From: Lachnospiraceae bacterium
GTDB taxonomy: Bacteria > Bacillota > Clostridia > Lachnospirales > Lachnospiraceae
DNA: 64,000 nt
Reading direction: 5' to 3'
Assembly: GCA_022792535.1 (NCBI GenBank)
Contig: JAAWBG010000036.1
Coordinates: forward strand, 7,031 to 71,030
The position numbers and the translations under genes were made by a program. Of the stretch, positions 47,503 to 48,926 are shown in pieces (position 1 is the first letter of the stretch; every line of letters starts with the position of its first letter). The notes beneath the pieces are model-generated. The model worked only from the letters and a program-made list of their open reading frames with translations, did no database searches and was not told the origin of the DNA.

Positions 47503-47542
47503 GAAAGAGGATGGAAAATTCCATAACTTTCCATCCTCTTTC
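47503..47542. terminator. Terminator-like hairpin after the FN3 gene
   Basis: Perfect 15-bp stem GAAAGAGGATGGAAA / TTTCCATCCTCTTTC. Confidence 0.6.
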
Positions 47543-47566: not shown

Positions 47567-48824
47567 TTATTTTCTGTATGTCAAATACCAGCAGTAGGTA
47601 TCATCACTCTTATAAGTCTTCTTTCCTACTTTTCGATTGGCTGTTACAGAAAAATAATATTTCTTGTTATTTTTCAATTTAGATTTTCCATACTTTTTAA
47701 CTGTATAACTTGTCTTCTTGGTGGTAACTACTTTTTTATAGCCAGACTTCTGTTTCGTAGACATAGACACCGTATAATTTTGGGCACCGCTTACCTTACT
47801 CCAAGAAAGTTTAAGTCCGCCGGAAACCTTTTTGATCCTTATCTCTGGCTGTCTTGCAAAATACTCCCAATTAGACCAGGCTCCATACTTTTCTCTGCCG
47901 CCTACATTGATATAATGGCGCGCCCGTATTTTCAGAAATTTATATCCCTTCAGTTTATTATGAGAAAAATATGGGTTTGTTTTTGTTCCGCTCCATTTTC
48001 CCTTTATAATGGCCTTCTTTCCATTGTATGCATAAATCTCATACTGTCCGCCATCTACAATCCTATTTTCATTAAAGGAAAGTTCCAAATACTTGGAACT
48101 ATAATTCCAAAACTCACAATCCAATCCTGTGAGCTTTGTAGGAAGGGTTGGTACATAATAAAGCAAAGTAGAACTTCCTACTGCCTGATATCCACCCTGA
48201 CTCTTATTGACAGGATACACACAGAATTCATATTCCGAATTCTTATTTAATCCTTTCACTGTATAAGAACTCACATTACCTAAATTTATTGTTTTCTTAT
48301 TATCGTTGATTCCTTCTTTTTGATATTCAATCCGATATGCGTTAACTCCATCTGCCTTCTTCCAGGATAAGGTAATGGATGTCTCTGTTGCATTGCTCTC
48401 CCGAAGCTCTGTCACTCTGGCTGACGGTTTTGTCACTACTTCTATTACATCTGAAGGCGTTCCATATGTATAGGTATAATTCGGATAGCCAGAATTATAA
48501 TAAGCTGTCACTCGTACATAATATTTTCTGCCAGGGGTAAGACCATTCATACTTTCCTTAGTACTTGATGTGCCTCCCCAGCTGCCCATATTATCTTTCA
48601 CGCCGCCAGTAAAATTCCTGTCTGCGCAGATCTCTACCTTATACTCCACACCATTTCCAATAACAGCATCCCAGGTAACTTCTATACTGCCGGTACTATT
48701 ATAAGTCTGCTCTACACCTGTTACTTTTCCAGGGCCTGCGGCCTCAGCCTTTACCCCCCCCCAGAACTAATGTACACATAAGAGCTAGTGTACCAGCCTG
48801 AAGCATTTTCCACAAATTCTTCAT
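47567..48824 (-). pseudogene. Secreted FN3-repeat protein frameshifted at a G9 tract in its signal peptide (phase-OFF state or sequencing error)
   Basis: ATG 48824 gives MKNLWKMLQAGTLALMCTLVLGGGKG* with G9; G8 gives ..LVLGGVKAEA-AGPGKVTGV.. joined to track ORF 47567..48649 (418 aa). Confidence 0.82.
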
Positions 48825-48896
48825 ACTCAAATATTCCTTTCTTTCTTACTTTTCCGTTGCATCTTCCTGTCTTTGTTAATAGTTACTTACGTTATT

Positions 48897-48926
48897 ATGA
48901 TACTATTGATAACTAGAATATGTCAA
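48897..48926 (-). promoter_or_regulatory. Probable sigma-A promoter of the FN3 gene
   Basis: TTGACA-18 nt-TATCAT. Confidence 0.5.

What the first reader, a model, noticed from the sequence alone, without database searches (positions are those of the whole stretch)
48744..48824. G9 homopolymer in a signal peptide switches an FN3 surface protein OFF: phase-variation candidate
Seen: nine C at 48754-48762 on plus. With G9 the gene stops at TGA 48746-48744 after 26 aa. With G8 it reads MKNLWKMLQAGTLALMCTLVLGGVKAEA|AGPGKV.., a well-formed signal peptide with an A-x-A site, giving 418 aa. The ORF track misses the first 58 codons for this reason. Established: slipped-strand mispairing at poly-G/C tracts of this length drives ON/OFF variation of surface proteins. 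Caveat: homopolymers are also a common sequencing error.
Basis: partly seen in the sequence, partly recalled or inferred. Interest (0 to 1): 0.72.

Follow-up and report, generated by a model that had tools for sequence, protein, structure and literature searches.

The report
Poly-G on/off switch in secreted protein
A run of nine G's in the export-signal codons of a secreted four-domain FN3 protein keeps the gene off in this gut Lachnospiraceae genome. It is one of 16 such runs, mostly in surface-sugar genes, and two of them change length between otherwise identical assemblies, so it is probably a slippage on/off switch of a well-known kind.

Summary
A G9 run lies on the minus strand at 48754-48762, 21 codons after the ATG at 48824, and stops the frame after 26 aa. 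G8 or G11 would give 418 or 419 aa: a signal peptide plus four FN3 domains.

The gene is otherwise healthy:
- 397 open codons follow the tract.
- dN/dS is 0.145 against an 82%-identical ortholog.
- The promoter is conserved.
- Twelve orthologs lack the tract and are intact.

The tract is not isolated. The genome has 16 G/C runs of 8 or more (0.2-1.3 expected) but only 5 of length 7. Eleven lie on the sense strand of coding sequence. Ten of those are in glycan genes: O-acyl-, acetyl- and pyruvyl-transferases, a GT2, DUF1919 and DUF6311. One lies in a promoter spacer. About five genes are off and the rest on.

Two sibling tracts differ by one G between assemblies that otherwise show 0 mismatches over 8.1 and 3.3 kb. 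Relatives, including closed genomes, show the same pattern.

At the FN3 tract itself only G9 was seen, in two assemblies that are probably of one sample. The tool for finding sequencing runs was closed, so no reads were checked.

The mechanism is classical. I found no paper describing it in Lachnospiraceae. This scan has already noted similar poly-G switches in other Lachnospiraceae genomes.

The parts
48897..48926 (-). Promoter-like site TTGACA-18 nt-TATCAT, about 70 nt upstream of the start codon
   Evidence: 11 of 12 matches. The block is conserved in the 85%-identical sister lineage L014, while the sequence further upstream is not.
48835..48840 (-). Shine-Dalgarno-like AAAGGA, 10 nt before the ATG
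   Evidence: Read directly. Conserved in L014.
48744..48824 (-). 26-codon ORF as assembled: signal-peptide n- and h-regions, then an out-of-frame GKG and TGA
   Evidence: In the AF2 model residues 2-20 form a helix. The N-terminus is conserved in 12 orthologs.
48754..48762 (-). G9 homopolymer on the sense strand, the proposed slippage switch. G8 or G11 is ON; G9 and G10 are OFF.
   Evidence: The Logan contig of SRR11195283 also has G9.
47567..48753 (-). Downstream frame of 396 codons plus TAA: the signal-peptide cleavage region (VKAEA|A) and four tandem FN3 domains, the last one lysine/arginine-rich
   Evidence: open frame. (PF00041, E 7.7e-23). (pLDDT 92, four beta-sandwiches). (fibronectin and LAR four-FN3 fragments are the top hits). 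(27% K+R in the last 94 aa; no LPXTG).
47503..47542 (-). 15-bp perfect hairpin with a 10-nt loop, 25 nt after the stop codon. Possibly a terminator, but it has no U-run.
   Evidence: Read by eye. The consensus scan did not report it because it lacks a T tail. Function not tested.

Best explanation
The G9 run is a hypermutable homopolymer that works as a slipped-strand ON/OFF switch for a monocistronic gene. The gene encodes a Sec-exported, non-catalytic protein of four FN3 domains. It sits between a LytR-CpsA-Psr ligase gene and two FN3-tailed wall hydrolase genes, at the end of a surface-glycan locus.

Shown: at G9 translation from the only start codon that carries a signal peptide ends after 26 aa, and at G10 after 24 aa. 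The loss of one G or the gain of two restores a 418- or 419-aa precursor.

Inferred: gain or loss of G's during replication flips individual cells between states. The assembled population is mostly OFF. Any product reinitiated downstream would lack the signal peptide and stay in the cytoplasm.

The switch is one element of a genome-wide and genus-wide set of poly-G tracts. The others mostly control enzymes that decorate surface glycans. Together they would give the population a mix of surface variants, plausibly useful against phages, host antibody or both. That benefit is inferred and untested.
For: (1) Frame arithmetic.

(2) The gene is not decayed. 397 codons are open after the tract. Against the 82%-identical ortholog, dN/dS is 0.145 at dS 0.74. 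The promoter and RBS are conserved.

(3) All 12 orthologs examined are intact and have L-G-x-G-x-K-x-E-A where the tract lies. The nearest has GGA ATA GGG ATG there. Six of 12 bases differ at that spot, against about 15% elsewhere, so the run is derived.

(4) G/C run lengths in the genome are 6:143, 7:5, 8:4, 9:8, 10:3, 11:1. A/T runs decay monotonically. GGG is only 16% of Gly codons, and Gly-Gly is written GGGGGG in 0.6% of cases.

(5) Eleven of the 16 long runs are sense-strand G runs in coding sequence. Ten of these are in glycan genes: three Acyl_transf_3, MBOAT, hexapeptide acetyltransferase, GNAT, pyruvyl transferase, GT2, DUF1919 and DUF6311. One more lies in a TTGACA-18-TATAAT spacer. 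The states are mixed: split or truncated genes sit beside intact ones.

(6) Direct length polymorphism occurs at sibling tracts. The pyruvyl transferase has G10 in the genome (gene split) but G9 in Logan contigs of SRR11195283 and SRR36216097 (gene intact). That is the only difference in 8,067 and 2,953 aligned bases. The promoter-spacer tract is G9 here and G10 in SRR36216097, the only difference in 3,350 bases.

(7) Forty-two of 49 genomes of the genus have runs of G9 or longer. In a closed genome, five runs of G9-G13 lie within 19 kb of a glycan locus, in acyl-, acetyl- and methyl-transferase genes. One relative has G9 at the same W-G-G-V of its MBOAT gene and another in a promoter spacer.

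(8) An independent assembler gives G9 at the FN3 tract, with 100% identity over 7,297 nt.
Against: No ON allele (G8 or G11) of this gene was found. The exact G8 protein is absent from the 15-billion-protein collection, and no full-length protein of 90% identity or more exists there.

Only two assemblies cover this tract. They are probably built from the same reads, so agreement on G9 says little about variation.

The one-G differences at sibling tracts could in principle be homopolymer miscalls or PCR stutter rather than biology.

The genome has intact MutS and MutL, so slippage rates may be lower than in Campylobacter or Helicobacter.

The tract is absent from all other species examined. It is therefore young, and its switching has not been shown to be selected at this gene.
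Confidence: 0.68

Rival explanations
1. Recently fixed loss-of-function allele. A slippage event inactivated the gene and the lineage now lives without it. The tract is a mutational scar, not a switch in use.
For: Only G9 was seen. The tract is lineage-specific. An intact 43%-identical paralog exists on contig C6 and might cover the function.
Against: No second lesion occurs in 397 codons, and dN/dS is 0.145. A G9 run is intrinsically reversible. Sibling tracts of the same length do change between assemblies. The genome-wide excess of runs of 8 or more argues that such runs are kept, not merely suffered.
Confidence: 0.15
2. Sequencing or assembly error. The real tract is G8 or G11 and the gene is simply intact.
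For: Homopolymers are error-prone. The genome is a 150-contig draft at 92.7% completeness. Two assemblies disagree by one G at another tract, so consensus lengths at these runs are not fully reliable.
Against: Two different assemblers give G9 here with 100% identical flanks over 7.3 kb. Contigs run through the tract without breaking. A/T runs show no anomaly. An error would change the length but would not create the run or the genome-wide pattern.
Confidence: 0.12
3. Recoding on a fixed G9 template. A +1 ribosomal slip on GGG-G, or RNA-polymerase slippage on the run, yields some full-length protein without any DNA change.
For: GGG_G is a known +1-prone context, and homopolymers can cause transcriptional slippage (both from general knowledge).
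Against: No stimulatory element was seen: no in-frame stop or rare codon at the slip site, and no upstream SD-like stimulator. Sibling tracts vary at the DNA level. In the closest studied case the authors attribute switching to DNA replication slippage (PMC9187656).
Confidence: 0.05

Closest known systems
Bifidobacterium breve UCC2003 sortase-dependent pilus genes bbr_0113 and bbr_1889 (G-tract replication-slippage switch; PMC9187656)
   Same: A Gram-positive gut commensal. An intragenic sense-strand G-tract of about 10-12 separates the ORF carrying the Sec signal from the ORF carrying the mature surface protein. Database annotation shows two ORFs or a truncated gene. ON and OFF are set by tract length.
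   Different: Those genes encode LPXTG pilins at the head of an operon, so OFF is polar. Here the gene is a monocistronic four-FN3 protein without LPXTG. In B. breve, switching and enrichment in vivo were measured by maximum-depth sequencing. Nothing was measured here.
Campylobacter jejuni poly-G contingency genes in the capsule, LOS and flagellar glycosylation loci (from general knowledge)
   Same: A bimodal genome-wide excess of G8-G11 runs, concentrated in surface-glycan modification genes, with mixed ON and OFF states in any one genome. The runs cluster inside glycan loci.
   Different: Campylobacter lacks MutS/MutL mismatch repair. This genome has both. The host here is a Gram-positive-type Lachnospiraceae commensal. 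The tracts here show a strong Gn-TA flank preference that I do not know from Campylobacter.
Neisseria opa (CTCTT repeats in the signal-peptide region) and porA/opc (poly-G/C in the promoter spacer) (from general knowledge)
   Same: The repeat is placed within the signal-peptide codons, so OFF gives a short leader fragment. The same genome also has a homopolymer in a -35/-10 spacer (C92:26839).
   Different: opa uses a pentamer repeat rather than a homopolymer. Those are outer-membrane adhesins of a pathogen.
Haemophilus influenzae oafA and other phase-variable AT3 O-acetyltransferases (from general knowledge)
   Same: Sibling tracts in this genome lie in three Acyl_transf_3 genes.
   Different: This concerns the neighbours of the finding, not the FN3 gene. 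As I recall, oafA uses a tetranucleotide repeat.

Membership tests
Slipped-strand (homopolymer) phase-variable contingency locus | Homopolymer of about 8 bases or more in the 5' coding region or promoter of the gene | tested here: met
   G9 at codons 21-24 of the gene.
Slipped-strand (homopolymer) phase-variable contingency locus | Changes of +/-1 unit toggle between a full-length and a truncated product | tested here: met
   G8 gives 418 aa, G9 26 aa, G10 24 aa and G11 419 aa.
Slipped-strand (homopolymer) phase-variable contingency locus | Tract length differs among clonal or near-identical genomes at this locus | tested here: inconclusive
   G9 stands in both assemblies that cover it. These are probably from the same sample. 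The contig of a second sample ends 150 nt short of the tract. Two metagenome scans found nothing.
Slipped-strand (homopolymer) phase-variable contingency locus | Other tracts of the same kind in the same genome vary in length on identical flanks | tested here: met
   Two of five comparable tracts differ by one G, with 0 mismatches in 8,067, 2,953 and 3,350 nt.
Slipped-strand (homopolymer) phase-variable contingency locus | Long tracts are over-represented relative to composition and biased to surface genes | tested here: met
   16 observed against 0.2-1.3 expected, with a trough at length 7. Ten of 16 lie in glycan genes.
Slipped-strand (homopolymer) phase-variable contingency locus | Reversible switching at a measurable rate, with a phenotype | not testable with these tools
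   Needs cultures, error-corrected amplicon sequencing and protein detection.
Fibronectin type III repeat protein (PF00041) | Significant profile match and an FN3 beta-sandwich fold | tested here: met
   PF00041 at E 7.7e-23 with 3 stretches. The AF2 model has pLDDT 92.1 and four sandwiches. The top Foldseek hits are four-FN3 fragments of LAR and fibronectin, at E about 1e-17.
Sec (SPase I) signal peptide | Basic n-region, hydrophobic h-region and an A-x-A cleavage motif | tested here: inconclusive
   By eye, MKNLWK, then a 15-residue hydrophobic stretch, then AEA|A in the G8 or G11 frame. The model has a helix at 2-20. The pattern is conserved in 54 homologs. No signal-peptide predictor was available.
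Sortase-anchored pilin or adhesin (as in the B. breve switch) | C-terminal LPXTG sorting signal | tested here: not met
   No LPXTG-like motif is present. The C-terminal FN3 is 27% K+R.
Programmed +1 ribosomal frameshift (prfB type) | A slippery codon followed by an in-frame stop, with an upstream SD-like stimulator | tested here: not met
   The stop lies three codons after the run, and no SD-like element precedes the run.

The most novel reading that the evidence does not exclude
This Lachnospiraceae genus, whose nearest named isolate by RF2 identity is 'Roseburia sp. 499', runs a large poly-G 'phasome' despite intact mismatch repair.

Dozens of tracts per genus sit in glycan O-acyl-, acetyl-, methyl- and pyruvyl-transferase genes, in promoter spacers and in secreted FN3 proteins. 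They are built to a common design: a sense-strand Gn followed by TA. The ON frame reads Gly-Gly-Val, and TAA gives an immediate stop in one OFF frame.

If so, stochastic surface variation by slippage would be a general strategy of abundant gut commensal Clostridia, not only of pathogens.
Probability: 0.45. Interest if true: 0.65.

Novelty: new member of a known kind. Interest (0 to 1): 0.5.

Why it matters
Homopolymer switches are textbook biology for mucosal pathogens. Among gut commensals they have been shown experimentally mainly for Bifidobacterium pili. I found no paper in the held library that describes them in Lachnospiraceae.

If real, there are three consequences:
- Lachnospiraceae populations carry built-in heterogeneity of surface proteins and glycan decoration. 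This bears on phage resistance, IgA coating and colonisation.
- Genome annotations of these bacteria systematically mis-call such genes as truncated or split. Here the record has a 360-aa product without its signal peptide.
- Tract lengths in MAGs should be read as population majorities, not as fixed genotypes.

Tried and rejected
I did not pass run ids from other tools to read laying.
- Two pattern scans of metagenome contigs, allowing G5-G14 between the flanks, found nothing.
- The search for related loci on genome contigs returned only one distant hit.
- The exact G8 protein is not in the protein collection. The G11 protein could not be queried, because it cannot be derived from the window.
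- Four of nine neighbour-gene look-ups, meant to compare sibling tracts across assemblies, found no record. One contig ended before its tract.
- A crude test asking whether +/-1 lengthens the open frame by 100 codons or more did not discriminate. Tracts near 5' ends gain little by that measure, and 1-2% of A/T runs pass by chance. I relied instead on Pfam evidence for split domains.
- The first read-through code, GGTA=V, hit other in-frame sites. CTGG=L worked.
- I rejected an Illumina poly-G end artefact. The run is internal, and homologous sequence flanks it on both sides.

Full report
**Observation.** On the minus strand the gene starts at ATG 48824-48822, ten bases after AAAGGA, and runs into nine G's at 48762-48754. 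As assembled it reads a 26-aa peptide and stops at TGA 48746-48744. Reading one base fewer gives an uninterrupted 418-aa protein, P0003. A length series shows that G5, G8 and G11 are in frame (417, 418 and 419 aa). Every other length from 6 to 13 ends within 23-27 aa. G10 stops immediately, because the tract is followed by TAA. The mechanical ORF list, and the public annotation of this contig, hold only a 360-aa GTG-start fragment. A Logan gene call gives a 327-aa fragment.

**What the gene is.** P0003 has a basic-hydrophobic N-terminus with an A-E-A site, followed by FN3 repeats (PF00041, E 7.7e-23). An AlphaFold model built on 54 homologs is confident (pLDDT 92.1). It shows an N-terminal helix at residues 2-20, a disordered stretch at residues 22-26 where the tract lies, and four beta-sandwich domains. 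Its best structural matches are four-FN3 fragments of LAR and fibronectin.

There is no catalytic domain and no LPXTG. The last domain is 27% Lys+Arg. Weaker copies of that domain occur in the neighbouring amidase and in three other large secreted proteins of the genome.

The gene has its own promoter-like site, TTGACA-18-TATCAT at 48926-48897. A 15-bp hairpin follows the stop codon (read by eye). Its neighbours are as follows:
- Upstream lies a LytR-CpsA-Psr ligase gene, and beyond it a glycan locus with a Wzx-type flippase, GT4, epimerases and a sulfotransferase-like gene.
- Downstream lie an FN3-tailed Amidase_3, a 1,096-aa FN3/Ig protein and a GT2.

**Is the gene dead?** No other lesion exists: 397 codons are open after the tract. 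Against the closest relative (P0004/L014; 82% aa and 85% nt identity), dN/dS is 0.145 at dS 0.74. The promoter, leader and RBS are conserved while the sequence further upstream is not. Eleven orthologs in other species of the genus, and P0004, are all intact.

At the tract position these orthologs read L-G-x-G-x-K-x-E-A. P0004 has CTG GGA ATA GGG ATG AAG there and is 419 aa long. G11 is therefore the length homologous to the orthologs, and G8 is an in-frame version one Gly shorter. Six of the 12 bases under the tract differ from P0004, against about 15% elsewhere. The run is therefore a derived, lineage-specific feature.

**The tract is one of a set.** In the 3.19-Mb draft genome the G/C run lengths are 5:1548, 6:143, 7:5, 8:4, 9:8, 10:3, 11:1, whereas A/T runs fall monotonically. 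Extrapolation predicts 0.2-1.3 runs of 8 or more; 16 are present. GGG is a minority Gly codon (16%), and only 0.6% of Gly-Gly pairs are written GGGGGG.

I fetched all 15 other tracts and scanned the genes around them:
- Eleven of the 16 tracts lie in coding sequence, always as G on the sense strand. Ten of these are in genes of surface-glycan synthesis or decoration:
  - Three Acyl_transf_3 genes: one intact, one cut at about codon 12, one split into 146 + 257 aa.
  - An MBOAT gene, intact.
  - A hexapeptide acetyltransferase, truncated; G9 would restore the usual C-terminus.
  - A GNAT gene.
  - A polysaccharide pyruvyl transferase, split into 252 + 181 aa.
  - A GT2, a DUF1919 and a DUF6311 gene.
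- One tract forms the spacer of a perfect TTGACA/TATAAT promoter, with an 18-nt spacer.
- One lies just upstream of a response-regulator gene.

A mixture of ON and OFF states in one genome, concentrated in surface-modification genes, is the signature of contingency loci.

**Direct evidence of instability at sibling tracts.** Exact-protein look-ups of neighbouring genes retrieved Logan contigs of the same strain from three runs.
- At the pyruvyl-transferase tract the genome has G10. SRR11195283 and SRR36216097 have G9, and the gene is there called as one intact product. This is the only difference in 8,067 and 2,953 aligned bases.
- At the promoter-spacer tract the genome has G9 and SRR36216097 has G10, the only difference in 3,350 bases.
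- Three other tracts (DUF1919, MBOAT and the FN3 tract) agree between the assemblies that cover them.

So tract length is by far the most variable character of this strain. Miscalls at G runs cannot be excluded without reads.

**Relatives.** Runs of G9 or more occur in 42 of 49 genomes of the genus, including closed chromosomes. In one closed genome, five runs of G9-G13 lie within 19 kb of a co-directional glycan locus. They sit in Acyl_transf_3, PglD-like acetyltransferase and methyltransferase genes. In another genome there is a G9 in a TTGACA-17-TAGAAT spacer, a G9 at the same W-G-G-V of the MBOAT gene as here, and a G9 at the start of an AlgX-like acetyltransferase gene. The phenomenon is therefore genus-wide, although the FN3 tract itself is specific to this lineage.

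**Mechanism and its limits.** The best reading is slipped-strand mispairing at the G run during replication, which toggles export-competent translation of the FN3 protein. The assembled majority state is OFF.

The following are inferred, not shown: switching at this tract, its rate, and any benefit. The genome encodes intact MutS and MutL, as do Neisseria and Haemophilus, so rates may be moderate.

The rivals are a recently fixed null allele (0.15), a consensus length error (0.12) and recoding on a fixed template (0.05).

**Comparison with the known.** The closest studied case is the G-tract switch in the first pilin genes of two Bifidobacterium breve pilus clusters. There the Sec signal and the LPXTG part are encoded by two ORFs separated by a G-tract, and maximum-depth sequencing showed length heterogeneity and enrichment in vivo (PMC9187656). 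The genome-wide picture resembles the Campylobacter jejuni poly-G phasome. The placement in signal-peptide codons resembles Neisseria opa. Both of those comparisons rest on my own knowledge.

The organism is a Lachnospiraceae. Its homologs are named so, and its RF2 is 95% identical to that of 'Roseburia sp. 499'. Four full-text searches found no paper describing slipped-strand or homopolymer phase variation in this family.

Earlier notes of this scan report similar poly-G switches in other Lachnospiraceae genomes: a YfhO glycosyltransferase, a promoter spacer, and a galactanase signal peptide. This is therefore a further member of a pattern the scan has already met on other DNA.

**Verdict.** The phase-variation reading is well supported indirectly but unproven at this tract. 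The mechanism is of a known kind, in a bacterial group where it appears not to have been described.

Noticed in passing
G000 contig C92:26839-26847 (locus L024:2540-2548), outside the window: A G9 run forms most of the 18-nt spacer between a perfect TTGACA and a perfect TATAAT, upstream of a 267-aa gene with no Pfam match. The same strain in SRR36216097 has G10, the only difference in 3,350 nt. This is a candidate promoter-strength switch.
   Followed up: partly
All 16 G/C runs of 8 or more in G000 (loci L017-L029 and window 48754-48762): Nine of the 16 runs are followed by TA, against 6.4% for runs of 4-6 (p about 1e-7). Five of the nine are followed by TAA. In ON frames the coding tracts read Gly-Gly-Val (GGG GGG GTA) in four unrelated proteins. 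TAA gives an immediate stop in one OFF frame. Relatives show the same flank. The cause is unexplained.
   Followed up: partly
G000 contig C137:9501-9510 (L028:5902-5911): The polysaccharide pyruvyl-transferase gene is split by G10 in the genome record but intact (G9) in two Logan assemblies of the same strain. One of those contigs starts 10 nt before the tract.
   Followed up: yes
All 11 coding tracts of G000: In every case the run is poly-G on the sense strand (Gly codons), never poly-C (Pro codons). All genes of the window lie on the minus strand, which is G-rich (GC skew -0.16 to -0.26 on plus).
   Followed up: no
window 47567-48649 (-): The public annotation carries a 360-aa GTG-start product without a signal peptide, and a Logan gene call gives 327 aa from Met92. 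Both are artefacts of the frameshift. Such tract-bearing genes are likely mis-annotated across this genus.
   Followed up: partly
window 47570-47851 (-) and G000 contigs C6, C28, C92: The lysine-rich last FN3 domain recurs at the C-termini of the paralog on C6 and, more weakly, in the neighbouring 786-aa amidase and in proteins with open frames of 1,025 and 2,454 aa. In relatives it matches many proteins of 900-2,500 aa. It may be a shared wall-attachment module.
   Followed up: partly
G000 contig C82:31694-31703 (L020:2495-2504): A G10 run directly follows an ATG that has a good AAGGAG site, 47 nt upstream of the annotated start of an OmpR-type response regulator. G9 would give a version with a 19-aa N-terminal extension.
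   Followed up: no
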